From: a virus
Virus record (IMG/VR): IMGVR_UViG_3300045988_054218
Reading direction: 5' to 3' (one strand)
Length of the DNA stretch: 64,000 bases
In this document: one piece after another, positions 45,502-55,602 of the stretch
Layout: every line of letters starts with the position of its first letter
How positions within the stretch are numbered: the first letter of the stretch is position 1
Program-made: the position numbers and the translations under genes
Notes under the pieces: generated by a model
Told to the model about the DNA's origin: nothing
What the model saw: only the letters and a program-made list of their open reading frames with translations
The model's database searches: none

Positions 45502-45913
45502 AGTAGCAAAGGTGACGCTGTACAGCGTATGTCTGGCAGTCCTGTTGTGGTTTTTCCTCTCATGGCTTGACATAGTATGGGATAACTGTGAACCCAATCC
45601 GCACAACAGCCCATATAATGTCTTTGTCCTTATGACGCAACAAGAGGAAAAGACAGAAGAGCCTACCGCAATAGAGGGAACTTGCGGAAGCCCGCTTACC
45701 GATCAGACAAGGCTGGCAACCGCAGTCATAACCAACATTGACGGTAACACGCTTACTCTTGTTACGCTTGAGGATGGCGAGGAATGGACAGTCGAAGTCG
45801 GATATGGCGAGAACTTCTCAACAGATGACTACCTGTGCGTATTCTTCGATAACATGGGAACTGACTCAATCTATGATGACGAGGTCGCCAAACTCTGGAA
45901 AGAGGTCTGGTAA
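45494..45913 (+). CDS. Membrane-anchored early protein (139 aa)
   Basis: Part of ORF-track 45464-45913; ATG at 45494. N-terminal TM helix VTLYSVCLAVLLWFFLSWL. Confidence 0.65.
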   Translation: MRKVAKVTLYSVCLAVLLWFFLSWLDIVWDNCEPNPHNSPYNVFVLMTQQEEKTEEPTAIEGTCGSPLTDQTRLATAVITNIDGNTLTLVTLEDGEEWTVEVGYGENFSTDDYLCVFFDNMGTDSIYDDEVAKLWKEVW

Positions 45914-45914
45914 A

Positions 45915-45945
45915 TATAGGGTGGAGAAATCCACCCTATATTTTT
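45915..45945 (+). terminator. Rho-independent terminator
   Basis: TATAGGGTGG-AGAAAT-CCACCCTATA followed by TTTTT. Closely related to the terminator at 51141-51171. Confidence 0.75.
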
Positions 45946-45972
45946 GTGCATTTTTCATAAAGACATTTTCGC

Positions 45973-46006
45973 CGGCGCGCTGGCGACCGCGGCGCGCCGA
46001 GTTTTG
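45973..46006 (+). terminator. GC-rich hairpin followed by AGTTTT (member 1 of a covarying family)
   Basis: CGGCGCGC-11 nt-GCGCGCCG followed by AGTTTTG. Confidence 0.55.
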
Positions 46007-46008
46007 CG

Positions 46009-46087
46009 TTTGTGCAAGTTGCACAAATTTGGAAGTGAAATTTTGGTATAGGCAAGTTGCACAATCAATCCCGAAATCTTTGTGCAA
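46009..46087 (+). promoter_or_regulatory. Operator-like box cluster (TTGTGCAA / TTGCACAA) upstream of the promoter at 46096
   Basis: Palindrome TTTGTGCAA-G-TTGCACAAA at 46009-46027, TTGCACAA at 46057-46064, TCCCGAAA at 46069-46076, TTGTGCAA at 46080-46087. Confidence 0.5.
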
Positions 46088-46095
46088 TTTGACAG

Positions 46096-46124
46096 TTGAC
46101 AATCCCTTGTGCCTGTGGTACAAT
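46096..46124 (+). promoter_or_regulatory. Early promoter (TTGACA-17-TACAAT, TGn extended -10)
   Basis: TTGACAATCCCTTGTGCCTGTGGTACAAT. Confidence 0.6.
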
Positions 46125-46155
46125 GGTATCATCAAAAGAAAGGAAGTGCTCCAAC

Positions 46156-46386
46156 ATGGCTAATCGCATTGGATTTACTGACACCCTCACTGGCAAGGAA
46201 ACTGTTTGCGGGACTTGGGCAAAAACGACTCTCGCAGTTATTCAGCTTTCCGTTTCACATAACGACTGGGCAAGATTTCTTCCATTCTGTAATGGCTGGA
46301 ATCTTGACTACCCGCAGAAAGATGAATGTCCGATTGAGTATCGGGCAAGAATGATTGATATGGCTATCGGTCTCCAACTCATTTGA
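46156..46386 (+). CDS. Hypothetical early protein (76 aa)
   Basis: ATG follows AAAGGAAG. Part of ORF-track 46096-46386. TGA stop lies inside a hairpin. Confidence 0.6.
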   Translation: MANRIGFTDTLTGKETVCGTWAKTTLAVIQLSVSHNDWARFLPFCNGWNLDYPQKDECPIEYRARMIDMAIGLQLI

Positions 46387-46417
46387 GTTGGAGACCCCAG
46401 AGAAAGGATTTGAAATT

Positions 46418-46612
46418 ATGTTACCGAGAAGACATTGCGCATACGACATTACCACCGGCGAAATCCTCTGCTGTGACCGCGGAAATCATCTCAAGCGTTC
46501 GGTTGCCCTGACCAAGAAAGTCAATAAGGAAATGTTTGGAGTCGCCGGACAGTGGCGGTTCTGCCACGACTTCGGCAAGAAGTGGATTGAGAAAGGAGCG
46601 CCTACCAGATGA
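46418..46612 (+). CDS. Small Cys/His-rich protein (64 aa)
   Basis: ATG follows AGAAAGGATTTGAAATT. Part of ORF-track 46355-46612. Confidence 0.6.
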   Translation: MLPRRHCAYDITTGEILCCDRGNHLKRSVALTKKVNKEMFGVAGQWRFCHDFGKKWIEKGAPTR

Positions 46613-46776
46613 AGAACTACCTGTTCTATGATGAAGAAACCGGCGAGTATTTCTTCGTTCAAGAAGTCAACCTGTGGAAAGCTAATCAGACAGCGCATCT
46701 CTTCTTTCAGCGTCCCTTTTACAAGTGTTCCATGAGCGACGCAGAGGCTGAAATGTACGGATACGATACCTACTAA
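46609..46776 (+). CDS. Small hypothetical protein (55 aa)
   Basis: ATGA overlap with the previous gene. SD GAAAGGAG. TAA at 46774-46776, followed by a terminator. Confidence 0.55.
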   Translation: MKNYLFYDEETGEYFFVQEVNLWKANQTAHLFFQRPFYKCSMSDAEAEMYGYDTY

Positions 46777-46777
46777 G

Positions 46778-46812
46778 AGAAAGCCGGTGATGAACCGGCT
46801 TTCTTTACTTTT
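46778..46812 (+). terminator. Rho-independent terminator
   Basis: AGAAAGCCGGT-GATGA-ACCGGCTTTCT followed by a T-rich tail. Confidence 0.75.
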
Positions 46813-46866
46813 GGTAAAATTTTTGATATAATAATTACAGAAGAAATGAGAAAGGAGAATTTTCTA

Positions 46867-46983
46867 ATGACGCTAGAAGTGCTGAAAGCGCTGGCTGTCA
46901 TTCTGGAGTTCTGCATGAACCAAGATTCTTGCAAGAACTGCCCAATGGCCCAGTTCTGTTAGAAGATGCCATGCGAGTGGTAA
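46867..46983 (+). CDS. Cys-rich micro-protein (38 aa, 1 TAG), AT-rich class
   Basis: ATG follows AAAGGAG. MTLEVLKALAVILEFCMNQDSCKNCPMAQFC-TAG-KMPCEW. TAA at 46981-46983. Confidence 0.5.
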
Positions 46984-47008
46984 TCTAATTCCTTTCGGCA
47001 AAATGCCG

Positions 47009-47033
47009 CGGCTCCCGTCTGGAGTCGAATTTT
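47009..47033 (+). terminator. GC hairpin followed by AATTTT (family member with one G-U pair)
   Basis: CGGCTCC-CGTCT-GGAGTCG followed by AATTTT. Confidence 0.4.
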
Positions 47034-47068
47034 CGCACAAGCTAGGTCACTAGAAATAAAAAAGCAAA

Positions 47069-47299
47069 ATGGCTGAATCTACTTACTCTAGAAAATTGGA
47101 CGCAATGGGAAGAATTATGATTCCTGTTCGGCTTCGTGATCAGCTCGGACTTATTACAGGCCGAGAGTATTCATTCGAGGTTCGTTAGATCGACGGCCGC
47201 AATTACATTTGTATTGATTGTGGTTTGAATACTGAATTGGAAGAAGCTATGAAACTTGTCCAAAATGCTGGACTAAAAGTTGTTCAAAATGACGATTGA
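47069..47299 (+). CDS. AbrB/MazE/SpoVT-type DNA-binding protein (76 aa, 1 TAG), AT-rich class
   Basis: Every codon hand-counted. MAESTYSRKLDAMGRIMIPVRLRDQLGLITGREYSFEVR-TAG-IDGRNYICIDCG.... TAG at 47186-47188, TGA at 47297-47299. The swapped-hairpin motif R.lD..GRi.iP..lR is present. Confidence 0.65.
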
Positions 47300-47324
47300 C
47301 AAACCATGCTTTCTATGGTATACT
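47296..47324 (+). promoter_or_regulatory. Early promoter (TTGACA-17-TATACT, TGn)
   Basis: The -35 box overlaps the stop codon of the AbrB-like gene. Confidence 0.55.
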
Positions 47325-47355
47325 TAAACCATCAAAAGAAAGAAGGTTTGATGCT

Positions 47356-47492
47356 ATGTATGAGTTTGAAGTCTTGTTAAAGAATGGCGAGCACACTTTC
47401 ATTTGGGTTATAGCTTTGATGACGCCAAGCGCCGCAATCCAAAAACGGCGAACGAAATCGAAACCATTTTATTCCAAGAATACATTGATTAA
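47356..47492 (+). pseudogene. Small gene with an apparent 1-nt frameshift at a GGG run (47405-47407)
   Basis: The frame from ATG 47356 gives MYEFEVLLKNGEHTFIW. The protein-like continuation GYSFDDAKRRNPKTANEIETILFQEYID, with TAA at 47490-47492 just before a terminator, lies in the -1 frame (one base back: TGG then GGT sharing G 47406; equivalent to a missing G). The uninterrupted ORF-track reading (47296-47649) runs through the terminator. Confidence 0.45.
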
Positions 47493-47500
47493 AGAAATGA

Positions 47501-47526
47501 CCTCCCGAAATCCGGGAGGCTTTTCT
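47501..47526 (+). terminator. Rho-independent terminator
   Basis: CCTCCCG-AAATC-CGGGAGG followed by CTTTTCT. Confidence 0.7.
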
Positions 47527-47536
47527 AATGCCCCGG

Positions 47537-47568
47537 CTGGCCGTGCGCGAACGCCGCGGCCAGTTTTT
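47537..47568 (+). terminator. GC-rich hairpin followed by TTTTT (family member 2)
   Basis: CTGGCCG-13 nt (itself partly paired)-CGGCCAG followed by TTTTT. Confidence 0.55.
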
Positions 47569-47645
47569 CGTGTCAATAGGCAATTTGCACAATTTTCCAT
47601 ACGCATTTTTGGTGAATTTGACGAAAGAAATTTTCCCAAAATCCC

Positions 47646-47674
47646 TTGACTTCCTATGTAGGCTGTGGTATACT
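47646..47674 (+). promoter_or_regulatory. Early promoter (TTGACT-17-TATACT, TGn)
   Basis: TTGACTTCCTATGTAGGCTGTGGTATACT. Confidence 0.55.
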
Positions 47675-47702
47675 TGTATCATCAAAAGAGAGGAGCGAAC
47701 AC

Positions 47703-47843
47703 ATGATGGTTGCAATCATTATTCTAACCGCCCTGTTGTCTTTCCAATTTGTTTCTGCTATTGAGCGGGATTGCATGGGGCTGGCGCTTATGTTTGGCGT
47801 TGAGATTATTCTTTTCGCTTATATCGCAAAAAACTTCATTTAA
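47703..47843 (+). CDS. Small two-helix membrane peptide (46 aa)
   Basis: ATG follows GAGAGGAG. MMVAIIILTALLSFQFVSAIERDCMGLALMFGVEIILFAYIAKNFI. Confidence 0.55.
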   Translation: MMVAIIILTALLSFQFVSAIERDCMGLALMFGVEIILFAYIAKNFI

Positions 47844-47847
47844 GGGG

Positions 47848-47876
47848 TTGACAAACTCCCCTAAGTATGCTATACT
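47848..47876 (+). promoter_or_regulatory. Early promoter whose -35 box sits in the loop of a hairpin (TTGACA-17-TATACT)
   Basis: AGGGG-TTGACAAAC-TCCCCT, then TAAGTATGCTATACT. Confidence 0.5.
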
Positions 47877-47927
47877 AACAGTGTAATCAAGGTTGACAAC
47901 CTAAACAGTCAGAAAGGAAGTTATATT

Positions 47928-48379
47928 ATGAGAGTTACTAAGACTATCCGGGAGTTTATCGAAAAGGAAGTTTCTAACCGTCTGGACGCCAAGTATACGG
48001 CGGAGAAAGAGGAAGCCGATTTCCAGACCAAGGTGGAACAAGAAGTGTGGGAAGTGGCTATGGATGCCGCACAAAAGCCTATGACGGGTATATGGCAAGT
48101 GTCTTTACTCGGTATGATTTCCTTGAGGACTTGCATACCGACAAGGAACGCCGTTGTGTCGAACTCCGCAAGTCTATGGCGTTCGGTATCAAAGATAGGC
48201 TGAACCGCTCCAGCGTTCTTAACTGGCGTAGACGCAAGGACGATGAAGCAAGGTCTATCGTCAATGACATTATCGTGGAACTGGAACTCGGCGGCGATAA
48301 GGCAACCCTTATGGCTATGCTGGATAGGGTCGGGGAAGTCTTACACTTCCCCGACAAGAAAAAGAAAGGATTTGATAAA
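47928..48379 (+). CDS. Early protein with an apparent -1 frameshift near 48072-48079 (CAAAAGC); may be fused to the downstream AbrB domain
   Basis: ORF-track 47928-48203 (frame A) has a protein-like N-terminus. ORF-track 48047-48778 (frame B) carries the protein-like continuation AYDGYMASVFTRYDFLEDL...IIVELELGGDKATLMAMLDRV. No stop separates frame B from the AbrB gene. Confidence 0.4.
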
Positions 48380-48778
48380 ATGAAAGCTACTGGTATCGTT
48401 CGCCGCATTGATGACCTCGGTCGCGTGGTCATCCCCAAGGAAATCCGTCGTACTCTTGCTATTCGAGAGGGTGACCCGCTGGAAATCTATACCACAGACG
48501 GCGGCGTTCTTTTCCGCAAGTACACACAGCCCACAGAAAACAAGGCGGCTATCGCCCAGAAGTGGCTGGAGGACAATGCACTCCCCATGCGTGCCACATC
48601 CGCTAAGTTCAGCATCGAGAACAAAACCACCACTTGCGAGGTGGTCAGCAATAACAGCCGTCGGACTGGAACGGCAACCGCTACGGCAGAAGATATTTTT
48701 ATCCCCGCTGTCGGTATGGTTATCGCCTTTTGCCGAGCCTCTGGCAGAACTGTTCCGCAGGAACTGCTTGAGGACTAA
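48380..48778 (+). CDS. AbrB/SpoVT-type DNA-binding protein with a C-terminal extension (132 aa), GC-richer class
   Basis: ATG follows AGAAAGGATTTGATAAA, the SD pattern shared by several early genes. MKATGIVRRIDDLGRVVIPKEIRRTLAIREGDPLEIYT. Confidence 0.7.
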   Translation: MKATGIVRRIDDLGRVVIPKEIRRTLAIREGDPLEIYTTDGGVLFRKYTQPTENKAAIAQKWLEDNALPMRATSAKFSIENKTTTCEVVSNNSRRTGTATATAEDIFIPAVGMVIAFCRASGRTVPQELLED

Positions 48779-48796
48779 AAAAATAGCATAAAGGGC

Positions 48797-48825
48797 TTGA
48801 CAAAACAAGCCCTTTATGCTATAAT
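48797..48825 (+). promoter_or_regulatory. Early promoter embedded in a hairpin (TTGACA-17-TATAAT)
   Basis: AAAGGGCTTGACAAAACAAGCCCTTT places the -35 box in the stem/loop. Confidence 0.55.
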
Positions 48826-48854
48826 AAAACCATCAAATGAAAGGGGAAAATAAA

Positions 48855-49055
48855 ATGTTTATTCTTTTGGTTCTTCTGGCTCTCGTAGTTTCATTCCTTA
48901 TCACAGCGGGCCTTGTTTGGCTTCTTTGCTGGCTTCTTCCCGCCATTGGAATTGTAGCCATTGGCACTTTCACTATCGTGTTTTCGTGGAAGTTGGCTTT
49001 GGCTATTTGGCTTATTATTGCACTTTTGCGCGGTTTGTTCGTTAGCAAAAGCTGA
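48855..49055 (+). CDS. Small integral membrane protein (66 aa)
   Basis: ATG follows AAAGGGGAAAATAAA. Almost entirely hydrophobic, with two or three TM helices. Confidence 0.6.
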   Translation: MFILLVLLALVVSFLITAGLVWLLCWLLPAIGIVAIGTFTIVFSWKLALAIWLIIALLRGLFVSKS

Positions 49056-49070
49056 AAGGAGGTTATAAAA

Positions 49071-49316
49071 ATGGATTTGAACACTGATTTTAGTTACATG
49101 ACCGATGAAGAATTAGACGAACTCATTTCCCGGATAAAAGAAGCAAAGGAACGGCGTTCAGAAAGCCGAAAAATCGACCTTTGGAATAATGTTCGGCGGG
49201 CGGTAAATAACTATATCATGGATTTCGGCATGATTGAACTTTTTACCGAGGACCACAATTTTACATTGGATGCTGATGCTTTTAGCATCCCCGGTGAAAT
49301 CAATCCATTAGACTAA
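49071..49316 (+). CDS. Acidic hypothetical protein (81 aa)
   Basis: Complete ORF following AAAGGAGG. Confidence 0.65.
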   Translation: MDLNTDFSYMTDEELDELISRIKEAKERRSESRKIDLWNNVRRAVNNYIMDFGMIELFTEDHNFTLDADAFSIPGEINPLD

Positions 49317-49320
49317 ATAA

Positions 49321-49349
49321 AAAACTACCCAATTTTGGGTAGTTTTTTT
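49321..49349 (+). terminator. Rho-independent terminator
   Basis: ACTACCC-AATTTT-GGGTAGT followed by TTTTTT. Confidence 0.7.
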
Positions 49350-49363
49350 GTTTATTTTGCCTA

Positions 49364-49392
49364 TTGACAATCCTGAAGCTTTGTAGTATAAT
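49364..49392 (+). promoter_or_regulatory. Promoter (ATTGCCTATTGACA type, 17-bp spacer, TATAAT) firing straight into a GC hairpin
   Basis: TTGACAATCCTGAAGCTTTGTAGTATAAT. Confidence 0.55.
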
Positions 49393-49430
49393 TGGGCGGC
49401 GCGTTGTGGGCCACCACGCGCCGAGTTTAC
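49393..49430 (+). ncRNA. Candidate ~35-nt hairpin RNA or promoter-proximal terminator (GC-hairpin family member 3)
   Basis: Begins 1 nt after the -10 box. CGGCGCGT-loop-ACGCGCCG followed by AGTTTA. Confidence 0.3.
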
Positions 49431-49483
49431 GCAAGAGTATTATTACACAAATTTTTCGTTGCATTTTTGTGCAAATTGCCAGC

Positions 49484-49512
49484 TTGACTTTCTCCCGAAA
49501 CGGTGATACAAT
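49484..49512 (+). promoter_or_regulatory. Early promoter (TTGACT-17-TACAAT, TGn) with TCCCGAAA in its spacer
   Basis: Preceded by TTGTGCAA at 49467-49474. Confidence 0.55.
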
Positions 49513-49542
49513 GAGTACAACAAAAGGAAAGAGGTAAGCACC

Positions 49543-49824
49543 ATGAAAAAGAAAACTTACTGCTATGAGAACCGCACTTTCGAGGTCGAAGTCTATAATG
49601 AATGCTGTGGTTGTCTGCTAACTATCTATGTAAATGAAGTTATCCGCCCTAATCGCAAGTTCTTTGGTCGCACTAAGCAGTTCTATACAGACTATGTTAT
49701 TCTTGACCAGTATTCTTCTATTGATGAAGCTGTTAAATCAGTTATCGCAGAGGGGCTGAAAGTAGAAGAACAGACTAAGCAAGTTAATAAGAAGTGGGAA
49801 GAATGGAGCAAAGAAACTAATTAA
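49543..49824 (+). CDS. Hypothetical protein (93 aa)
   Basis: Complete ORF following GGAAAGAGG. Confidence 0.65.
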   Translation: MKKKTYCYENRTFEVEVYNECCGCLLTIYVNEVIRPNRKFFGRTKQFYTDYVILDQYSSIDEAVKSVIAEGLKVEEQTKQVNKKWEEWSKETN

Positions 49825-49833
49825 AATTGCCTA

Positions 49834-49862
49834 TTGACATTTTGGCAATTTTATATTATAAT
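49834..49862 (+). promoter_or_regulatory. Promoter (ATTGCCTATTGACA type, 17-bp spacer, TATAAT)
   Basis: TTGACATTTTGGCAATTTTATATTATAAT. Confidence 0.55.
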
Positions 49863-49888
49863 AATTATAGAAAGTGAGGGAGAAAGAA

Positions 49889-50350
49889 ATGAACCTGTTG
49901 ATTATCTTTATTTTGCTTTCGATTGTAAATGTTATCTTCTCCACAATCAAGAGCATTGTAACTATCAAATCCGGCCCGTGGGTCGCAAGCATTGTTTCCG
50001 CTCTATACTATGGCTATTACAACATTGTATTGATTTACACTGTTGCAGATTTTCCCCTGTGGCAGAAAGTTGTAGTAACTGCGGGCTGTAACCTCGTCGG
50101 CGTTTTCGTCGTGAAGTATGGAGAAGTTAAAGCGAGGAAAGATAAGCTGTGGAAAGTGGAATTAACAGTTCCCACCAAGTACAAAGACGCCATTGATGAA
50201 TTGGGTGTTCCCCATTCTTACATTGAGTTAAGCGATAAGCACACCCTTTTCAATTTCTACTGCGCTACACAAACCGAAAGCGCAAAAGTCAAAGCGATTG
50301 CCAATCAGTACGAAGCAAAATATTTTGTTGCGGAAAGCAAAAATCTTTAA
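49889..50350 (+). CDS. UPF0316/DUF2179-like membrane protein (153 aa)
   Basis: ATG follows GAGGGAGAAAGAA. An N-terminal 3-TM domain plus a soluble C-terminal domain resemble the Bacillus UPF0316 family. Confidence 0.5.
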   Translation: MNLLIIFILLSIVNVIFSTIKSIVTIKSGPWVASIVSALYYGYYNIVLIYTVADFPLWQKVVVTAGCNLVGVFVVKYGEVKARKDKLWKVELTVPTKYKDAIDELGVPHSYIELSDKHTLFNFYCATQTESAKVKAIANQYEAKYFVAESKNL

Positions 50351-50358
50351 GAAAAGGG

Positions 50359-50387
50359 TTGACAAATAACAAGGTTTGTGGTATACT
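50359..50387 (+). promoter_or_regulatory. Early promoter (TTGACA-17-TATACT, TGn)
   Basis: TTGACAAATAACAAGGTTTGTGGTATACT. Confidence 0.55.
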
Positions 50388-50418
50388 TTAGGTACACTAA
50401 AAGAGAGGACTGAATAGA

Positions 50419-50667
50419 ATGAAAGTTAAAGTTGTTATTACAAAAGAGCAAGAAATGGAAATTGAAAATTCCGCATCTCTCGCTGTACTCAATAAGTGGT
50501 GGAAAACCCATCGTGCAACAGAGTGGAAAGATTGCCCAAACGAGTTGGTTGAAAAGGCAATCAAAGAAGTTGAAGAAGCCACTGGATTGCCTTTTGGGTG
50601 TGATGATGTCCCTGAAACTATCAGCGCAGTTCTTACTGGAAATAATGATGCCATTTTAGAATGGTAA
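50419..50667 (+). CDS. Hypothetical protein (82 aa)
   Basis: Complete ORF following AGAGAGGA. Confidence 0.65.
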   Translation: MKVKVVITKEQEMEIENSASLAVLNKWWKTHRATEWKDCPNELVEKAIKEVEEATGLPFGCDDVPETISAVLTGNNDAILEW

Positions 50668-50688
50668 ATCAGAATTTCTAAAAAGGTA

Positions 50689-50717
50689 TTGACAAGATGG
50701 AAGTCTTGTGATACAAT
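50689..50717 (+). promoter_or_regulatory. Early promoter, first of a tandem pair (TTGACA-17-TACAAT)
   Basis: Its short leader contains the hairpin AGAAGCGTTGTACGCTTGCTT. Confidence 0.5.
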
Positions 50718-50793
50718 ATAATTGTTAAGAGGAGAGAAGCGTTGTACGCTTGCTTGTTGAGATAAGACTTCTCACAAAAATGTATAAAACCTC

Positions 50794-50822
50794 TTGACAA
50801 ACCCCTAAAACTATGATACAAT
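50794..50822 (+). promoter_or_regulatory. Early promoter, second of a tandem pair (TTGACA-17-TACAAT)
   Basis: Has the AAAACCTCTTGACAA context shared with 53279, 53394 and 53516. Confidence 0.55.
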
Positions 50823-50871
50823 AAAATTGTTCCAAGGGAACAAAAAAAAACAAGGAAAGAGGTACTTAATT

Positions 50872-51132
50872 ATGATGACCGAAAAGAACAAGATGGAATG
50901 CGATGACCTGCTGAAAACCCATGAGATGACGCAGAAGCTCCTCGATGCCAATACCGCGGACGCCGCTATGCTGGCAACGCTTGTCCAGATGGCCCGCGGA
51001 GGGAAAGACGAGATGGCGATGTATATGCTTCACAATCTCAAGCCCTACGCCATTGAAATCGCAGAGGGCGGCAAGGAAAAGGACGAGCCGGAAATCGACA
51101 TTGATGCCCTGCTCAGCGCCCTGTTCGGCTAA
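50872..51132 (+). CDS. Hypothetical protein (86 aa)
   Basis: ATG follows GGAAAGAGG. Part of ORF-track 50827-51132. Confidence 0.65.
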   Translation: MMTEKNKMECDDLLKTHEMTQKLLDANTADAAMLATLVQMARGGKDEMAMYMLHNLKPYAIEIAEGGKEKDEPEIDIDALLSALFG

Positions 51133-51140
51133 ACAACAGA

Positions 51141-51171
51141 AACTCGGTGGAGAAATCCACCGAGTTTTTTT
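51141..51171 (+). terminator. Rho-independent terminator
   Basis: AACTCGGTGG-AGAAAT-CCACCGAGTT followed by TTTTT. Confidence 0.75.
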
Positions 51172-51198
51172 GTGCAATTTTCGCAAATCCTTCTTGGG

Positions 51199-51232
51199 CG
51201 GTCCGCGCACACTCGGCGCGGACCGAGTTTTT
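51199..51232 (+). terminator. GC-rich hairpin followed by AGTTTTT (family member 4)
   Basis: CGGTCCGCGC-7 nt-GCGCGGACCG. Confidence 0.55.
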
Positions 51233-51285
51233 GTCAATATACAAGTTGCACAAATTTCTCGATCAATCTTTGTGCAATCTGACGA

Positions 51286-51314
51286 TTGACAGCTTTCCCG
51301 AAAAGTGCTATACT
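51286..51314 (+). promoter_or_regulatory. Early promoter, tandem 1 of 2 (TTGACA-17-TATACT) with TCCCGAAA in its spacer
   Basis: Preceded by TTGCACAA at 51246-51253 and TTGTGCAA at 51270-51277. Confidence 0.55.
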
Positions 51315-51383
51315 GTTTACAGAAGTTAAGAGAAACGCCCTTTGAACCTTGAAAAAAAGATTTGAAAAAATCGAAAAAAACTC

Positions 51384-51412
51384 TTGACAGCAAGCGCAAA
51401 GTGTGCTATACT
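51384..51412 (+). promoter_or_regulatory. Early promoter, tandem 2 of 2 (TTGACA-17-TATACT)
   Basis: Phased A-tracts upstream (GATTTGAAAAAATCGAAAAAAACTC). Confidence 0.55.
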
Positions 51413-51470
51413 AAGTACAGAAGTTGAGGGAACGATGGTAAACCTCAATCAATAGAAAGGATTTGACAAG

Positions 51471-52256
51471 ATGGAAAAAATTGACAAGCGCAAACACTAT
51501 GTTTTGGTGGTTGATACCGAAACCGCCAATACTATCCAAGACGGCGATAGTCTGGATATGTCCAATGTCCTTGTATATGACTGCGGTTGGGCGGTTGTGG
51601 ACACCAAGGGCAATATCTACGAAACCGCAAGTTATGTCAACCGTGACATTTTCTGCGAGGAACGTGACCTTATGCGGACGGCTTACTATAACTGGAAAAT
51701 CCCCCGCTATGTCGAGGAACTGCGGGCAGGTAGCCGAAAGATGGCAAGCACCTATGAAATCCGCAAGGCTATGCTGGACACTATCGAGAAGTGGGGCATT
51801 AAAGAGGTAGCCGCCCATAACGCCCGCTTTGACTATAACGCTTTGAATATAACACAGCGTTACATCACCGCAAGCCGTTTCCGGTACTGGTTCCCATTCG
51901 ACAGCGTGGAGATCTGGGACACCATGAAAATGGCACAAGATGTTATCTGCAAAATGCCCACCTATAAGGCGTTCTGTCAAGAGAACGGCTATGTGCTGAA
52001 AAATGGTGCTTGCCGCAAGACCGCCGAAATCCTGTGGCGCTTTATCTCCGGCAATAACGAGTTTGAAGAAAGCCACACCGGGCTGGAAGATGTGTTGATT
52101 GAAGCGGAGATTATGTTCTATTGCTTCCGACAGCATAAGCCCATGCGGAAAGCCCTCTTTGAGAACAAGAGAGAATATCCGCCTATGACAGAGTTTCAGC
52201 GAGAGTTTTCCGCAAGTCTGCGAGAAATGCCGGTAATTAGGTTTGGGGAGATTTAA
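51471..52256 (+). CDS. DEDDh 3'-5' exonuclease (DnaQ/RNase T-like)
   Basis: 261 aa. ExoI VVDTETAN, ExoII EVAAHNARFDYNAL, ExoIII ESHTGLEDVLIEAEI. Confidence 0.8.
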   Translation: MEKIDKRKHYVLVVDTETANTIQDGDSLDMSNVLVYDCGWAVVDTKGNIYETASYVNRDIFCEERDLMRTAYYNWKIPRYVEELRAGSRKMASTYEIRKAMLDTIEKWGIKEVAAHNARFDYNALNITQRYITASRFRYWFPFDSVEIWDTMKMAQDVICKMPTYKAFCQENGYVLKNGACRKTAEILWRFISGNNEFEESHTGLEDVLIEAEIMFYCFRQHKPMRKALFENKREYPPMTEFQREFSASLREMPVIRFGEI

Positions 52257-52279
52257 TCTCCCCAGCCTTGAAAAAGGGG

Positions 52280-52308
52280 TTGACAAATGAAAAGCAATCT
52301 GCTATAAT
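52280..52308 (+). promoter_or_regulatory. Early promoter (TTGACA-17-TATAAT, TGn)
   Basis: TTGACAAATGAAAAGCAATCTGCTATAAT. Confidence 0.55.
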
Positions 52309-52337
52309 GAATATATCAAAAGAAAGGAAGCGATAAG

Positions 52338-52790
52338 ATGAAAATGATTTGCTTCGATATGGACGGCACGATTGCTGATCTGTACGCCGTTCCTAACTGG
52401 TTAAATAAACTGCGGGCAGAGGACGCAAGCCCCTATGCAGAAGCCGCTCCTATGTGGGATATGAAAGCTCTGCGAGAAGTCCTCTTGAAGCTGATTGATA
52501 AGGGATATGAAATCCGTATTATCAGTTGGTTGAGCAAGGACAGCACCGAAGAATATAAAACCGCCGTCCGCAAGGCAAAAAGAGAGTGGCTTGAGAAGTA
52601 TAACTTCCCCGCTGATAAATGCCACTTTATCGCCTATGGTAGAACTAAGGCTGACTGTATTCGCCGCGTTGCAGACGCTCCCGCAGTTCTGATTGACGAT
52701 AACAAAAAGGTGCGGGACGGGTGGCATTTGGGTGAGTCAATCGACCCCACAAAGGTAAATCTGCTTGAAGTCCTTTCCGCTCTTGATTGA
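52338..52790 (+). CDS. HAD-superfamily phosphatase, 5'(3')-deoxyribonucleotidase-like
   Basis: 150 aa. DxDxT motif FDMDGTIAD at the N-terminus and a ...VLIDDN... distal acidic motif. Confidence 0.7.
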   Translation: MKMICFDMDGTIADLYAVPNWLNKLRAEDASPYAEAAPMWDMKALREVLLKLIDKGYEIRIISWLSKDSTEEYKTAVRKAKREWLEKYNFPADKCHFIAYGRTKADCIRRVADAPAVLIDDNKKVRDGWHLGESIDPTKVNLLEVLSALD

Positions 52791-52815
52791 GCGGAAAGGC
52801 AGAAAGGGAAAAAGA

Positions 52816-52998
52816 ATGAAAAAGACCGTATGGTTTGAATTTATGAACGCCGACAGCAAAGCCGCCGCGATTGAAGTTATCAAGCGCATGGGGTGGGATA
52901 TTGACGCCGAACATTTGACAGAGGACGGCGGACATTCGGTCACATTCCCAGACAAGGACGAAAATCTGTTTGAATTTTTGGATATGTGCTGGACCTAA
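52816..52998 (+). CDS. Small hypothetical protein (60 aa)
   Basis: ATG follows AAGGGAAAAAGA. Part of ORF-track 52765-52998. Confidence 0.55.
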   Translation: MKKTVWFEFMNADSKAAAIEVIKRMGWDIDAEHLTEDGGHSVTFPDKDENLFEFLDMCWT

Positions 52999-53021
52999 GA
53001 GGGGCGTTGCCCCTCTTTTTT
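52998..53021 (+). terminator. Rho-independent terminator
   Basis: AGAGGGGC-GTT-GCCCCTCT followed by TTTTT. Confidence 0.7.
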
Positions 53022-53048
53022 CGTCAAAATGCACAATGCCCTCTTCGA

Positions 53049-53081
53049 CGGCCCGCTGACGCACGCAGCGGGCCGAATTTT
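53049..53081 (+). terminator. GC-rich hairpin followed by AATTTT (family member 5)
   Basis: CGGCCCGCTG-7 nt-CAGCGGGCCG. Confidence 0.55.
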
Positions 53082-53179
53082 CATTATACACCACCGCCAG
53101 CAAAAAGTCAATCGGCAAACTGCACAAAAAATCATGCTTCGGATCTCCCGAAATTGTGCAACTTTTCAGCAAAAAGTTC

Positions 53180-53208
53180 TTGACTTCCGGCGCTGGTGGT
53201 GGTATACT
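53180..53208 (+). promoter_or_regulatory. Tandem promoter 1 of 4 (TTGACT-17-TATACT)
   Basis: Followed by the conserved initial transcribed sequence GTTTACAGAAGTTAAGAGAGGGA. Confidence 0.55.
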
Positions 53209-53278
53209 GTTTACAGAAGTTAAGAGAGGGACGCCGAAAGGCTTCCAAAAAGATTTTGAAAAAAATCGAAAAAACCTC

Positions 53279-53307
53279 TTGACAAACTCCGCAAGGCATG
53301 ATATAAT
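53279..53307 (+). promoter_or_regulatory. Tandem promoter 2 of 4 (TTGACA-17-TATAAT)
   Basis: Phased A-tracts upstream, then AGGTACAGAAGTTAAGGGAAAG downstream. Confidence 0.55.
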
Positions 53308-53393
53308 AGGTACAGAAGTTAAGGGAAAGCGGTTCTTGAAACGGCGAAAAGCGACAGTCAAGAAACTTCCAAAAAAAAACTTCAAAAAACCTC

Positions 53394-53422
53394 TTGACAA
53401 GCCAAGCGAAAAGTGCTATAAT
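53394..53422 (+). promoter_or_regulatory. Tandem promoter 3 of 4 (TTGACA-17-TATAAT)
   Basis: AAAAAACCTCTTGACAA context. The leader contains the hairpin TCAAACTT-CCG-AAAGTTTGA. Confidence 0.55.
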
Positions 53423-53515
53423 GAAAGCACAAGGAAACCCAATGCACCTTGAAAAGTCAACATCTTACTTCGGTATCAAACTTCCGAAAGTTTGAAAAGA
53501 AGTTCAAAAAACCTC

Positions 53516-53544
53516 TTGACAAACCGCCGAAAGTATGATATAAT
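53516..53544 (+). promoter_or_regulatory. Tandem promoter 4 of 4 (TTGACA-17-TATAAT)
   Basis: Lies 50 nt upstream of the ATG at 53595. Confidence 0.55.
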
Positions 53545-53594
53545 AAAATCACAAAAGGACAAGGACAGTCCTAAACACCAGAAAGGATTTGAAT

Positions 53595-53996
53595 ATGGAA
53601 AAGACTAACAAGACTCGTATCACCAAGGCTATGCGTTTCGAGGACATTAAGGCTATGCTGAATGGTCAGCCCGTGACCTACGGCACGACCACCGAGGACG
53701 CCGTGGACTTCATCGAGCATGAGGTGGCTCTGCTCGCCAAGAAGAACAGCGGTGAGAACAAGAAGCAGACCAAGACCCAGCAGGAGAATGAGGGCTATAA
53801 GGCGCTCATCCTGGAGTTCCTCGCCACTCTGTCTGATACTTCGGCTGGTGTGACCTGCACCGAGATTATCAAGGGCGTGGCGGAGTTCGAGGGCTTCAGC
53901 ACTCAGAAGATTTCCCCTCTGGTGCGTCAGCTCATGGCGGCTGATAAGGTCATTAAGACCGAGGTCAAGGGCAAGGCTCTGTTCCGTCTCGCCTAA
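53595..53996 (+). CDS. Early protein with a probable C-terminal winged-helix domain (133 aa); paralogue of 62304-62729
   Basis: ATG follows AGAAAGGATTTGAAT. Shares its architecture with 62304-62729 (FIEHEVALLAKK / FIAHEIELLDNK, then a basic linker, then ...EIIKGV / EIVKAI...). Confidence 0.65.
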   Translation: MEKTNKTRITKAMRFEDIKAMLNGQPVTYGTTTEDAVDFIEHEVALLAKKNSGENKKQTKTQQENEGYKALILEFLATLSDTSAGVTCTEIIKGVAEFEGFSTQKISPLVRQLMAADKVIKTEVKGKALFRLA

Positions 53997-54045
53997 GTCC
54001 CATAGGGGAGAGGGGTAAAACCCTCTCCCCGCCAAAAGAAAGGAA

Positions 54046-54453
54046 GTGGTTATTATCGCCCAGCGAGTAACAGACGCTGAACGCCTTGAGCGTATCAAGC
54101 GAGTGTTTCCAGACGAGAAAGAAGCGCAAGATATTCTCGCCTATGATAAGGCGGTAGAAGCAGGCGAAAAAACGGAATATGACCTGCCGCCGGATAAGCT
54201 GAAAGCCGCACAAAAGTATGCCCATGCAGGAACGCGGAAAGCGCCCACGGCATACAAGTTCACCAAGCGAGAACGCAAGCCTAACGCAACTAAGGGGGGC
54301 ATTATTGCGGAGCTTGCGGAGTTCATGGAACACAACAGTAACTTTGATGTTTCTAACCTTGCCATCACGAACAAGGAAAGACAGATTTCCTTTATGGTAG
54401 GCGGTGAAACTTTCGAGTTGACGCTTGTGCAAAAGCGCAAGCCGAAAAGCTAA
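54046..54453 (+). CDS. Hypothetical basic protein (135 aa, GTG start)
   Basis: ORF-track ORF. GTG follows AAAGGAAG. TAA TAA double stop. Confidence 0.6.
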   Translation: MVIIAQRVTDAERLERIKRVFPDEKEAQDILAYDKAVEAGEKTEYDLPPDKLKAAQKYAHAGTRKAPTAYKFTKRERKPNATKGGIIAELAEFMEHNSNFDVSNLAITNKERQISFMVGGETFELTLVQKRKPKS

Positions 54454-54462
54454 TAAGGATAG

Positions 54463-54858
54463 GGGCGGATAACCTCTATCCGCCCTCCCAGAAAGAGGGG
54501 AAAGCATACGGCAAAGCGACCTAAAGAGTTTTTATATGTCGGTCATTATATCGACAGGGACGGTAATTTCATTCTCAAGGTAGGCACTACAAATGACCTT
54601 GAGCGCCGCCGCAAAGAGCATAACCGCAACTATAAGAAAAGCCCTAACTACACCATGCCGCCGGGCGGTGAGTTCGTCTATGACTTTTCGCTTCCTCTTT
54701 CCAAGTATAACACCTTGAGATATGAGGATAAGACCCGCCAAAGATGGCAGGACGAGGGCATAGGCGAGTTTGTCAGAAATGACAGATTTTATTGCAAAAA
54801 GAAACCCAAAACCGTCAAAGTGACGATACGCAAAACCTACGAAATCCCGCTCGATTGA
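54463..54858 (+). pseudogene. T5orf172/GIY-YIG-like domain ORF with no canonical start codon
   Basis: The open frame reads ...KRPKEFLYVGHYIDRDGNFILKVGTTNDLERRRKEHNRNY..., but the first ATG/GTG/TTG is at 54655, inside the domain. An SD-like AGAAAGAGGGG lies at 54490-54500. Confidence 0.4.
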
Positions 54859-54871
54859 GCGGGATTTTTTG
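54842..54871 (+). terminator. Rho-independent terminator
   Basis: AAATCCCGCTC-GATT-GAGCGGGATTT followed by a T-run. The next 35 nt (TTTTTGTGCATTTTTCCACAAAGACATTTTCACC) repeat the sequence at 45941-45972. Confidence 0.75.
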
Positions 54872-54933
54872 TGCATTTTTCCACAAAGACATTTTCACCA
54901 AAAATCAAATGAGATTTTTGTATAAATTGCCTA

Positions 54934-54962
54934 TTGACACCCGGACGGAAATGTGGTATAAT
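54934..54962 (+). promoter_or_regulatory. Promoter (ATTGCCTATTGACA type, 17-bp spacer, TATAAT, TGn) firing straight into a GC hairpin
   Basis: TTGACACCCGGACGGAAATGTGGTATAAT. Confidence 0.55.
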
Positions 54963-54998
54963 GGCGGGCCGGTCGCGGGCGACTCGGCCCGAGTTTTA
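54963..54998 (+). ncRNA. Candidate ~35-nt hairpin RNA or promoter-proximal terminator (GC-hairpin family member 6)
   Basis: Begins immediately after the -10 box. CGGGCCG-GTCGC..GCGAC-CGGCCCG (about 12 bp) followed by AGTTTTA. Confidence 0.3.
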
Positions 54999-55573
54999 CC
55001 GATCGGAAGCATATGCAAAATTTTTGTTCAATCTAGCCGACTTTCATATGGCTTCTCGTTTTCCCGAAAGTTTGACATTCTAGCCCAATTTTATTTTCAT
55101 ACCATCATTGACTCATATTTCTAATTTCATTTGGCATATAGCCCACTCCACTTCCGTGTAGCTAACAAAATTTTAGTTGCTCATAGCGAACCTCCTGCGT
55201 TGCCGATCGGGTCCAGTTTTTCATATCAAAACAAGAGAGAAGATAATAAGAGCGGAGAACCAGTTAATCCGATCGGGCCCGCAATTAGAAGACTCTTTTC
55301 CAATTGTCTTTCCTCTTGATTTTTATAATAAAATATGTTATTATATTAAAAAAAGATATAAAAACGCCTCGGTTCTAGCTTAAAATTGCTAAAAACGAGA
55401 CAAAATAGCGCAAAAATCTAAGCTTTTCGACTTAAAAATTAAGAAAACGCACTTTAAATCCATCAAGTAATCATATTTCCTACTTCAAATTCTCTGTAGC
55501 CAACTACATAAATGCTATTACCTAGCAAAAATCCATACCGGAGAGAAAATTTTTGGACTAATTTCCGATCGGG

Positions 55574-55602
55574 TTGGCATATATTAAAAAATATTATATA
55601 AT
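55574..55602 (+). promoter_or_regulatory. Promoter (TTGGCA-17-TATAAT)
   Basis: Followed by the leader ATATATAGAAATTAAGAAAGG and the hairpin GTTCTTC-CCCGTA-GAAGAAC. Confidence 0.5.

What the first reader, a model, noticed from the sequence alone, without database searches (positions are those of the whole stretch)
45973..54998. Family of seven covarying GC-rich hairpins followed by A(G/A)TTTT; two sit immediately behind consensus promoters
The hairpins are at 45973-46006, 47009-47033, 47537-47568, 49393-49430, 51199-51232, 53049-53081 and 54963-54998. Their stem sequences differ, but pairing is preserved (for example CGGTCCGCGC/GCGCGGACCG, CGGCCCGCTG/CAGCGGGCCG, CGGCGCGC/GCGCGCCG). They share a CGG...CCG closing pair context and a 3' AGTTTT or AATTTT.

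Most lie just downstream of an ordinary gene terminator and upstream of the box/promoter module, which makes them a second, seemingly redundant terminator.

Two of them (49393 and 54963) start 1 nt after the -10 box of ATTGCCTATTGACA-type promoters. Those promoters would therefore make only a ~35-nt hairpin RNA unless termination is overridden.

This resembles promoter-proximal terminator/antiterminator control (compare lambda PR'-tR' with Q, or HK022 put RNAs). It could also be a set of small structured RNAs.
Basis: partly seen in the sequence, partly recalled or inferred. Interest (0 to 1): 0.65.

Follow-up and report, generated by a model that had tools for sequence, protein, structure and literature searches.

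The report
Conserved terminator hairpins bounding phage promoter cassettes
A gut phage that reads the TAG stop codon as an amino acid marks the start of each regulated promoter block in its early-gene region with the same 27-base GC-rich hairpin; it most likely stops incoming transcription and resembles the terminator/promoter cassettes of T4-type phages.

Summary
The hairpins are real and form a family, but it has six members in this window, not seven. Five are exactly 27 nt (CGG-NN-CGC-NN-loop7-NN-GCG-NN-CCG, then A-R-TTT): 45973, 49397, 51199, 53049 and 54965. The hairpin at 47535 is a divergent member; the one at 47009 is not a member.

The family recurs in every close relative (178 covariance-model hits in 35 loci, all on the gene strand) and in dozens of further IMG/VR phage contigs. 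The variable stem positions covary without a single mismatch.

Each copy sits 15-50 nt after an ordinary terminator. It heads a cassette of TTGCACAA/TTGTGCAA boxes, a TCCCGAAA motif and a promoter 60-104 nt downstream.

My best reading is an RNA-level intrinsic terminator that shields a regulated promoter cassette from upstream transcription. The closest known parallel is the PeSL of T4-type phages.

The promoter-hairpin fusion seen at 49364 and 54934 is optional at orthologous sites. Across the family, however, the -10 always ends 2-4 nt before the hairpin, so transcription should start inside the stem. A lambda-Q-like switch is not supported. A dedicated hairpin-binding factor or abundant ~30-nt hairpin RNAs are not excluded. 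No transcript data were available.

The parts
45973..46005 (+). Hairpin 1: canonical 27-nt member (45973-45999) plus AGTTTT tail
   Evidence: 52.9 bits
47535..47570 (+). Hairpin 3: divergent member (GGCTGGCCG..CGGCCAG, longer stem) plus TTTTT tail
   Evidence: 23.5 bits, E 9e-5. Orthologues in relatives score 21-27 bits.
49397..49429 (+). Hairpin 4: canonical member plus AGTTTA tail. It starts 4 nt after the -10 of promoter 49364-49392.
   Evidence: 40.6 bits
51199..51232 (+). Hairpin 5: canonical member plus AGTTTTT tail
   Evidence: 56 bits. Its L010 orthologue has three compensatory double changes.
53049..53081 (+). Hairpin 6: canonical member plus AATTTT tail
   Evidence: 56.9 bits
54965..55006 (+). 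Hairpin 7: same 27-nt frame but a 7+4 bp stem with one bulge. It is followed by AGTTTT and a CCGATCGG palindrome. Its sequence is nearly invariant across clades.
   Evidence: (39.1 bits)
47009..47033 (+).
   Evidence: 8.1 bits, E 6.5. No model hit at the orthologous position in L001.
49364..49392 (+). Consensus promoter (TTGACA-17-TATAAT, with upstream GCCTA) fused to hairpin 4. Present in only some relatives.
54934..54962 (+). Consensus promoter (ATTGCCTATTGACA type) fused to hairpin 7. Clade-specific.
45915..45945 (+). Ordinary A-tract/T-tract terminator of the upstream gene, 27 nt before hairpin 1. Equivalent ones lie at 47501-47525, 49319-49348, 51138-51169, 52997-53022 and 54841-54868.
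46010..46124 (+). Cassette body after hairpin 1: TTGTGCAA/TTGCACAA boxes (46010, 46019, 46057, 46080), TCCCGAAA (46069) and promoter TTGACA-17-TACAAT (46096-46124)
49443..49512 (+). Cassette body after hairpin 4: boxes at 49443 and 49467, and promoter TTGACT-17-TACAAT (49484-49512) with TCCCGAAA in its spacer
51246..51314 (+). Cassette body after hairpin 5: boxes at 51246 and 51270, and promoter TTGACA-17-TATACT (51286-51314) with TCCCGAAA in its spacer
53120..53208 (+). Cassette body after hairpin 6: boxes at 53120 and 53154, TCCCGAAA at 53146, and promoter TTGACT-17-TATACT (53180-53208)
47585..47674 (+). Cassette body after hairpin 3: box at 47585 and promoter TTGACT-17-TATACT (47646-47674)

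Best explanation
The hairpins are the 5' boundary element of a repeated regulatory cassette in the promoter-dense, presumably early, gene module (about 44-55 kb, + strand) of a TAG-recoded gut siphophage of about 140 kb.

The cassette order is:
- a 27-nt GC hairpin with a short T tract;
- 17-20 nt further on, TTGCACAA/TTGTGCAA boxes and a TCCCGAAA motif;
- a sigma-A-type promoter 60-104 nt after the hairpin;
- then small genes and an ordinary terminator.

The hairpin acts in the RNA of the gene strand as an intrinsic terminator, or insulator. It catches whatever reads through the ordinary terminator of the preceding unit, so the box-controlled promoter alone sets expression of the next unit. 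It looks redundant because cassettes are concatenated: each brings its own 5' insulator and its own 3' terminator.

Where a strong consensus promoter is fused 2-4 nt upstream, transcription should start inside the 5' arm. Those transcripts lose the stem base next to the T tract, so termination is weaker. They keep a hairpin flush with the 5' end, a known form of mRNA stabiliser. This last step is inference.

Because the cassettes are repeated, they, and the promoters even more so, also serve as crossover points for gene gain and loss.

Shown: the family, its frame, the covariation, the strand, the positions and the mosaic junctions. Inferred: termination, insulation, the transcription start position and stabilisation.
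For: **Strand and confinement.** All 178 model hits in 35 related loci are on the gene strand. In the window the family is confined to 45.9-55.0 kb; the 38 kb of - strand late genes holds none.

**T tract.** TTT at positions +3 to +5 is invariant in 37 unique copies. It is present in 54-56 of 60 copies that were selected without any requirement on the tail.

**Pairing.** Pairing is maintained by compensatory change. G.T mismatches outnumber A.C by 39 to 20 (p=0.018), which favours folding of the + strand.

**Position.**
- 102 of 112 contexts follow a run of 5 or more T by 2-47 nt.
- The downstream promoter lies at preferred distances of about 60, 81, 96 and 104 nt.
- In some wider-family contigs the hairpin directly follows a stop codon with no other terminator (L038, L060, L073), as does the HNH gene in L010.

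**Association with the box cassettes.** Exact TTGCACAA occurs 13 times, all within 44.3-54.4 kb. TCCCGAAA occurs 7 times, all on the + strand in the module. Boxes follow 63 of 87 wider-family copies.

**Promoter fusion.** The -10-to-hairpin offset is only 2-4 nt in 46 contexts. RNAs truncated at the predicted start fold at -12 kcal/mol, against -18 and -21 for the full hairpins, and the stem ends 2-3 nt further from the T tract.

**Mosaic junctions.** Junctions fall at the 5' edge of hairpin 4 (49396, five loci) and at hairpin 7 (the L010 insertion flanked by hybrid hairpins). They also fall at promoters and boxes.

**Parallel.** PeSLs of T4-type phages are composite sigma-70 promoter plus stem-loop cassettes, with demonstrated terminator and promoter activity and a role in shuffling (PMC2839356, PMC4122927).
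Against: - No transcript 3' or 5' ends are available.
- The T tract is short (mostly 4-5 T) and is separated from the stem by A plus one more base. That predicts partial termination at best.
- A generic terminator does not need several of the conserved features: the exact 27-nt length, invariant CGG and CGC blocks beside freely covarying positions, the loop pattern R-C-G-N-N-C-G, and an A after the stem in 49 of 60 copies. These hint at recognition by a specific factor.
- An efficient ordinary terminator already lies just upstream.
- Promoter-fused copies in the wider family keep T tracts as long as the others, often 5-6 T. That fits production of short terminated RNAs as well as it fits read-through.
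- More distant relatives (L031) have 37-nt CGG..CCG hairpins with no T run.
- The sequences compared are related, so counts are not independent events.
Confidence: 0.55

Rival explanations
1. The hairpin is a specific RNA recognition element rather than a plain terminator. Either a phage or host protein binds it to switch termination on or off, timing the hand-over from consensus promoters to box-controlled promoters. Or the promoter-fused copies are minimal genes for abundant ~30-nt hairpin RNAs that act in trans, for example as decoys.
For: - Position-specific invariance (CGG, CGC, the loop CG..CG, A at +1) sits beside freely covarying positions in 60-83 unique copies.
- The length is exactly 27 nt.
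- The -10 ends strictly 2-4 nt before the hairpin in 46 contexts, with different promoters, spacers and stems.
- Promoter-fused copies keep 4-6 T.
- The promoter, hairpin and T-run arrangement is also present in distant phAss-1.
- The sequence of hairpin 7 is nearly invariant across clades whose flanks have diverged.
Against: - No candidate binding protein was identified. Pfam scans of neighbouring genes found only AbrB/MazE-type DNA binders, an exonuclease, a HAD-type phosphatase (PHROGs match) and a T5orf172 domain.
- About 70% of contexts have no adjacent promoter.
- The promoter is optional at orthologous sites.
- The predicted start lies inside the stem, so the conserved CGG base would be missing from such RNAs.
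- No Rfam family matches.
Confidence: 0.22
2. The hairpin works at the DNA level. It would be a structure-specific recombination or cassette-boundary site (single-stranded hairpin or cruciform) that mediates gain and loss of gene cassettes, or a palindromic protein-binding site.
For: - Homology between relatives breaks exactly at the 5' edge of hairpin 4 in five loci.
- The HNH-gene insertion in L010 is flanked by two hybrid hairpins that share the outer 7 bp.
- Contig L004 ends exactly at hairpin 7.
- Compensation is almost entirely Watson-Crick, which DNA also needs.
- PeSL crossovers were mapped within or beside the stem-loop (PMC2839356).
Against: - Most of the roughly 30 distinct breakpoints lie at promoters, boxes and gene ends, not at hairpins.
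- The orientation is strictly that of transcription, and a T tract is conserved on one side only.
- G.T exceeds A.C.
- Arms of 10 bp around a 7-nt non-palindromic centre are poor substrates for cruciform extrusion (my own knowledge).
- A dimer binding double-stranded DNA would not need the variable positions to covary.
- No recombinase is adjacent.
Confidence: 0.1
3. There is no family. These would be unrelated ordinary terminators that happen to be GC-rich.
For: - Single-sequence folding z-scores are weak.
- The same loose motif occurs singly in many high-GC bacterial genomes.
Against: - Five copies against 0.09 expected.
- Length 27 dominates: 137 of about 220 CGG..CCG hairpins on the + strand of relatives.
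- There are 178 same-strand model hits.
- Only 16 of 101 high-GC genome matches are fully paired, whereas the low-GC phage-like ones are mostly paired at 3-4 of the 4 variable positions and about half carry the boxes.
Confidence: 0.02

Closest known systems
PeSLs (promoter-early stem-loops) of T4-type phages (Arbiol et al. 2010, PMC2839356; Comeau et al. 2014, PMC4122927)
   Same: - Repeated intergenic cassettes that combine a sigma-70-type early promoter with a GC-rich stem-loop acting as terminator or attenuator for upstream transcription.
- Concentrated in a variable region full of small genes without known homologues.
- Insertions, deletions and replacements between close relatives break at the cassettes.
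- The window also holds promoters whose -35 lies in the loop of a terminator hairpin (48783-48822), the commonest PeSL geometry.
   Different: - The phage lineage is unrelated (TAG-recoded siphophage, probably of Clostridia).
- The hairpin lies 60-104 nt upstream of its promoter, or directly after the -10 of another promoter, rather than between -35 and -10.
- It has a fixed 27-nt frame with conserved CGG/CGC blocks.
- It comes with extra TTGCACAA and TCCCGAAA boxes.
- Terminator activity and mini-circles have not been tested here.
Intrinsic (Rho-independent) terminators, including tandem or insulating terminators
   Same: A GC-rich stem with a GC-rich base, followed by a T run on the transcribed strand, downstream of genes and co-oriented with them.
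   Different: - The T tract is only 3-5 nt in the window (up to 7 in relatives) and is offset by 2 nt (A then R).
- The length is exact and the loop pattern is conserved.
- The element is restricted to one module instead of being used genome-wide.
- It always comes second, after an ordinary terminator.
Lambda PR'-tR' with Q, and HK022 put RNA (promoter-proximal control of termination)
   Same: In some copies a strong promoter is followed within about 30 nt by a hairpin and a T run.
   Different: - No late operon lies downstream.
- No Q-like gene was found among the proteins scanned.
- put has two stem-loops of about 70 nt; here there is a single 27-nt hairpin.
- The promoter is dispensable at orthologous sites.
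5'-terminal stem-loop mRNA stabilisers (E. coli ompA leader, B. subtilis 5' stem-loops; own knowledge)
   Same: In promoter-fused copies the predicted start lies within the first 3-5 nt of the stem. The RNA would therefore begin with a hairpin and no single-stranded 5' tail.
   Different: - Only about 30% of contexts have such a promoter.
- Start sites are inferred, not mapped.
- The stabiliser role does not explain the conserved T tract.
REP elements with RAYT transposases, and integron attC sites
   Same: Families of GC-rich imperfect palindromes in intergenic regions, in which structure is conserved more than sequence.
   Different: - There is no GTAG head (REP) and no RYYYAAC/GTTRRRY boxes (attC).
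- No RAYT or integrase gene was seen.
- Copies are confined to one 11-kb module, in one orientation.

Membership tests
Intrinsic terminator | Stable GC-rich stem-loop on the transcribed strand | tested here: met
   -18 to -22 kcal/mol. All 178 hits are co-oriented with the genes.
Intrinsic terminator | U tract immediately after the stem | tested here: inconclusive
   TTT at +3 to +5 is invariant, but the run is 3-5 nt and is preceded by A then R.
Intrinsic terminator | RNA 3' ends at the U tract, or reduced read-through | not testable with these tools
   No transcript data. The host is uncultured.
PeSL-type regulatory cassette | Repeated composite of a sigma-70-type promoter and a stem-loop in intergenic regions of a variable early region | tested here: met
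   The module encodes mostly proteins with no family match.
PeSL-type regulatory cassette | Indel and replacement breakpoints between close relatives coincide with the motifs | tested here: met
   Breakpoints fall at hairpins 4 and 7, at promoters and at boxes. Promoters are used more often than hairpins.
PeSL-type regulatory cassette | Stem-loop overlapping the promoter (between -35 and -10, or over the -10), in a T4-type myovirus | tested here: not met
   The family hairpin lies after the -10 or 60-104 nt upstream of a promoter. The phage is related to phAss-1 and SPbeta-like siphophages.
PeSL-type regulatory cassette | Excised mini-circles formed between flanking cassettes | not testable with these tools
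   Needs inverse PCR on phage DNA.
Lambda Q / PR'-tR' late control | Terminator between a constitutive promoter and the late operon | tested here: not met
   Late structural genes are on the - strand at 3.4-41.6 kb. Downstream of hairpin 7 lies a non-coding stretch, then a 151-aa gene with a promoter-like site of its own upstream.
Lambda Q / PR'-tR' late control | Q-family antiterminator gene | tested here: inconclusive
   There was no such Pfam hit among 20 proteins scanned. The rest of the ~140-kb genome was not examined.
HK022 put RNA | Two adjacent stem-loops (about 70 nt) directly after the promoter | tested here: not met
   A single 27-nt hairpin.
REP / RAYT | Conserved GTAG head next to the palindrome; copies spread over the genome; RAYT gene | tested here: not met
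   The upstream consensus is T-N-G-G, not GTAG. Copies occur only in the module.
Integron attC | R''/L''...L'/R' boxes (RYYYAAC...GTTRRRY) and promoterless cassettes | tested here: not met
   The stem ends are CGG/CCG, and every cassette has its own promoter.
N4-type hairpin promoter | 5-7 bp stem with a 3-nt loop, used by a virion RNA polymerase | tested here: not met
   The stem is 10 bp and the loop 7 nt. The module is full of sigma-70-type promoters.
RNA anti-CRISPR (solitary CRISPR repeat) | Sequence identity to the host's CRISPR repeat | not testable with these tools
   The host is unknown. Variable stems among copies argue against mimicry of one repeat.

The most novel reading that the evidence does not exclude
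The 27-nt hairpin is the binding site of a dedicated, still unidentified, RNA-binding factor of this phage group, and/or the promoter-fused copies are minimal genes for very abundant ~30-nt hairpin RNAs. Termination at every cassette boundary would then be switched in trans, or a host protein titrated. That would be a phage-wide timing device built from a single structured motif.
Probability: 0.2. Interest if true: 0.75.

Novelty: new variant of a known kind. Interest (0 to 1): 0.5.

Why it matters
This phage group is common in human gut metagenomes. One 93-aa protein of the module is indexed in 861 blocks of the public assembly collection. Its regulation is undescribed; the only paper on the nearest named relative, phAss-1, does not mention promoters, terminators or hairpins.

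The cassettes give a ready map of transcription units and of two promoter classes in an uncultured, TAG-recoded phage. They also show that the PeSL principle of mobile terminator/promoter cassettes exists outside T4-type phages.

The fixed geometry and the 2-4-nt promoter spacing are sharp, cheaply testable predictions. If the hairpin proves to be factor-dependent, it would be a compact new part for controlling termination.

Tried and rejected
- Megablast of the region against GenBank phages gave no match.
- Rfam gave nothing at gathering thresholds. At E<1 it gave only sub-threshold chance hits, none on a hairpin.
- ARAGORN found no tRNA or tmRNA in the window, and none in phAss-1 locus L037 despite a CCA-ended tRNA-like stretch.
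- Shuffle z-scores of isolated hairpins are uninformative for GC-rich 40-mers.
- The bacterial-genome scan was swamped by single, mostly unpaired matches in high-GC genomes. It was useful only in showing phage-like contigs binned with Oscillospiraceae, Lachnospiraceae and Acutalibacteraceae MAGs.
- The look-up of contigs encoding the gene after hairpin 4 returned only long DNA contigs and no transcript-like ends.
- The cultured relative Enterococcus phage H1 has a homologous promoter-dense module but no member of the family, so it cannot serve as a direct experimental stand-in.
- I considered accelerated stem evolution. Diversity among close orthologues is similar in stems and flanks.
- I considered a larger dyad of boxes around the hairpin. 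It holds for hairpins 1 and 5 only, so I dropped it.
- A - strand promoter reading into the hairpin from the downstream TGTCAATA element has no usable -10, so I dropped that too.

Full report
**Setting**

The window comes from a tailed phage that reads TAG as a sense codon. Treating TAG as coding doubles the total ORF length and yields, for example, a 2907-aa tape-measure frame at 16724-25447 on the - strand. Structural genes fill 3.4-41.6 kb on the - strand.

From 41.6 to 55.1 kb the genes run on the + strand. From about 44.05 kb the GC content rises from about 0.37 to 0.43-0.47. This stretch holds about 25 near-perfect sigma-70-type promoters (74 promoter-like sites against 33 expected). They sit in front of small genes that mostly match no protein family. 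The exceptions are two AbrB/MazE-type DNA binders, a DnaQ-like exonuclease, a HAD-type phosphatase (PHROGs match) and a T5orf172 domain.

The nearest named relatives are the TAG-recoded human-gut phage phAss-1 (51% identity in a structural protein, and in the NCBI 'code 15 clade') and Enterococcus and SPbeta-like siphophages of about 140 kb. The phAss-1 paper suggests a host in Clostridia and says nothing about promoters, terminators or hairpins (PMC10607447).

**The observation**

All seven hairpins are there. Five share an exact frame: 27 nt, CGG at the start and CCG at the end, a 10-bp stem and a 7-nt loop. Hairpin 7 differs in having a 7+4 bp stem with one bulge. Their tails are AGTTTT, AGTTTA, AGTTTTT, AATTTT and AGTTTT.

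Dinucleotide shuffles of the module give 0.09 such hairpins, against five observed. A covariance model built from relatives recovers the five at 39-57 bits. It recovers 47531-47571 at 23.5 bits as a divergent member. It does not recover the 47009 hairpin (8.1 bits, E 6.5). No other + strand hit with E below 0.01 appears in the 64 kb.

**Relatives**

I fetched 35 IMG/VR loci around homologues of the exonuclease gene; the complete genomes among them are about 138-148 kb. In these loci, 27 nt is by far the commonest length of a CGG..CCG hairpin (137 of about 220 on the gene strand). There are 47 unique 27-nt sequences.

The consensus is CGG-NN-CGC-NN-(R-C-G-N-N-C-G)-NN-GCG-NN-CCG, followed by A-R-T-T-T-T and preceded by T-N-G-G. 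Pairs 4:24 and 5:23 take four and three Watson-Crick types with no mismatch in 37 unique copies. Overall 94% of cells pair, against 77% after shuffling and 29-43% after sliding the 3' partners. This figure is partly built in, because the copies were chosen for at least 7 of 10 Watson-Crick stem pairs.

The orthologue of hairpin 5 in L010 differs by three compensatory double changes between identical flanks. The model finds 178 copies in the 35 loci, all on the gene strand and nearly all within the module.

A motif scan of IMG/VR finds 103 stretches. These include contigs of 160-197 kb that were not in the first set, again with the same boxes downstream in 63 of 87 unique contexts. Cultured Enterococcus phage H1 has the homologous promoter-dense module but no member of the family. 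phAss-1 has a weak member (17.9 bits) in the same arrangement.

**Anatomy around the hairpin**

Every window copy lies about 15-100 nt after an ordinary A-tract/T-tract terminator of the preceding gene. In relatives, 102 of 112 unique contexts have a run of 5 or more T within 70 nt upstream.

A GTTGCACA box usually begins 17-21 nt after the hairpin (about 30 of 112 contexts). Other contexts have the first box at 11 nt or about 45 nt, and 27 have none within 60 nt. Exact TTGCACAA occurs 13 times in the window, all between 44.3 and 54.4 kb. TCCCGAAA occurs seven times, all on the + strand within the module.

The next promoter starts at preferred distances of about 60, 81, 96 or 104 nt. It is of a second type. 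Its -35 is TTGACT or TAGACA, its -10 is an extended TATACT or TACAAT, and TCCCGAAA often sits in the spacer.

So the module has two kinds of promoter. Simple consensus promoters are often wrapped in a terminator hairpin. Box-controlled promoters carry the CGG hairpin at their upstream edge.

**Which strand and which molecule**

The orientation is invariant. A T tract is conserved on one side only, and G.T mismatches outnumber A.C by 39 to 20 (p=0.018) in 83 unique copies. This points to folding of the + strand, most simply the RNA. The counts are not independent events, because the genomes are related.

**Promoter-fused copies**

The -10 boxes of the 49364 and 54934 promoters end 4 and 2 nt before the hairpin. 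At orthologous sites the promoter is optional.
- In L001, L004, L005, L009 and L012, homology breaks exactly at 49396. There a different gene with its own terminator replaces the promoter.
- Hairpin 7 is almost invariant in sequence in 27 of 35 loci, but in the L016-L025 clades it follows a plain terminator.

Yet across the family, 46 of 162 unique contexts have a promoter matching the consensus at 10 or more of 12 positions ending 2, 3 or 4 nt upstream, and at no other offset from 0 to 11. These contexts have different promoters, spacers and stems, so the spacing is constrained.

With the usual start about 7 nt after the -10 (established knowledge), the RNA would begin at stem nucleotides 3-5. 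Such RNAs fold at about -12 kcal/mol instead of -18 to -21, and their stem ends 2-3 nt further from the T tract. I infer weaker termination for the promoter's own transcripts and a hairpin flush with the 5' end, the geometry of known mRNA stabilisers.

One observation cuts against this inference. Fused copies in the wider family keep T tracts of 4-6, which would equally suit short terminated RNAs.

**Mosaicism**

Among relatives of 90% identity or more, homology blocks break at about 30 recurrent points. Two of these points are hairpin edges (49396 and 54984-54997). The rest are at promoters (for example 46100, 50365/50787 and 51404), at boxes (51246), in tandem promoter arrays (53308/53495) and at gene boundaries.

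L010 carries an extra HNH-type gene with its own promoter, inserted between two hybrid versions of hairpin 7 that share the outer 7 bp. The cassettes therefore behave like PeSLs. Those are composite promoter plus stem-loop cassettes of T4-type phages, with measured terminator and promoter activity, that mediate shuffling of small genes (PMC2839356, PMC4122927). The hairpin itself is not the preferred crossover point.

**Interpretation**

The most economical account is an insulating intrinsic terminator that belongs to the downstream cassette. That explains several things:
- why it seems redundant with the preceding terminator;
- why it is tied to box-controlled promoters;
- why it is confined to this module;
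- why it serves as the only terminator where a gene abuts it.

I give this 0.55.

A plain terminator does not explain the exact length, the invariant CGG and CGC blocks next to freely covarying positions, the loop pattern, the A after the stem, or the near-invariance of hairpin 7. These keep alive a factor-recognised RNA element or a small-RNA reading (0.22). A DNA-level role gets 0.1.

The lambda Q analogy fails on layout, since no late operon lies downstream. The put analogy fails on structure.

**Limits**

There are no transcript data. Start sites are inferred from promoter geometry. The model and the alignments were built from sequences pre-selected for the CGG..CCG frame. The relatedness of the genomes inflates the counts.

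Noticed in passing
window 1-41650 (- strand); also 41693-42019, 43831-44055, 46867-46983 and about 47070-47298 (+ strand): TAG is read through. Frames open up to 2907 aa (tape measure, 16724-25447). In-frame TAGs also occur in small genes of the + strand region, including an AbrB/MraZ-like ORF. No suppressor tRNA, indeed no tRNA at all, lies in the 64 kb.
   Followed up: partly
window 51286-51440 and 53180-53560; L037 7090-7380; L047 4640-4900: These are tandem arrays of two to four consensus promoters about 100-120 nt apart. Each is followed a few nt after the -10 by a Shine-Dalgarno-like run (ACAGAAGTTAAGAGAGG and the like) with no start codon. They may be 5' 'STAB-SD'-type stabilisers or small RNAs. 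They precede the exonuclease gene and the gene at 53595.
   Followed up: no
window 54999-56239: The palindrome CCGATCGG occurs five times (0.3 expected) in the mostly non-coding stretch after hairpin 7. The first copy, 7 nt after the hairpin, is conserved with it across most clades. Several IMG/VR contigs end within 2 kb of this point, and one ends exactly at the hairpin. It could be an origin, a packaging site or simply a place where assemblies break.
   Followed up: partly
window 44291-54432: TTGCACAA/TTGTGCAA boxes occur 13 times exactly, all in the module, including the 19-bp palindrome TTTGTGCAAGTTGCACAAA at 46009-46027. TCCCGAAA occurs 7 times, all on the + strand, sometimes inside promoter spacers. 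These are probably operator or activator sites. The two AbrB/MazE-type proteins in the module are untested candidates for binding them.
   Followed up: partly
window 48783-48822, 47844-47862, 49826-49849: These are simple promoters whose -35 hexamer lies in the loop of a terminator-like hairpin, the classical PeSL geometry.
   Followed up: no
window 56741-56920: This AT-rich control region lies next to an HTH gene (56906-57352, - strand). It has a perfect inverted repeat, TTACAAATTTGC/GCAAATTTGTAA (56741-56768), a repeated AATTTATGCAAATTTAC, and a TTTGTACAAATAACGTAA/TTACGTTATTTGTAC palindrome.
   Followed up: no
L010 13494-14290: An extra HNH-type endonuclease gene with its own promoter is inserted at hairpin 7 and flanked by two hybrid hairpins.
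   Followed up: partly
L031 185-221, 1889-1925, 6026-6062: A more distant relative (exonuclease 54% identical) carries 37-nt CGG..CCG hairpins with no T run. They are still followed by TTGCACAA-type boxes and a promoter.
   Followed up: partly
L036 (Enterococcus phage H1) 9800-10620: This large intergenic region upstream of the HAD and exonuclease genes holds TGTGAA-N4-TTCACA palindromes, AAAATAACA repeats and one isolated GC-only hairpin (10083-10098, followed by CCATTTT). It may be an analogous control region in a cultured phage.
   Followed up: no
window 47928-48383: The 91-aa frame from 47928 stops at 48203, whereas relatives carry a 138-aa gene here. This may be a frameshift or truncation in this genome.
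   Followed up: no
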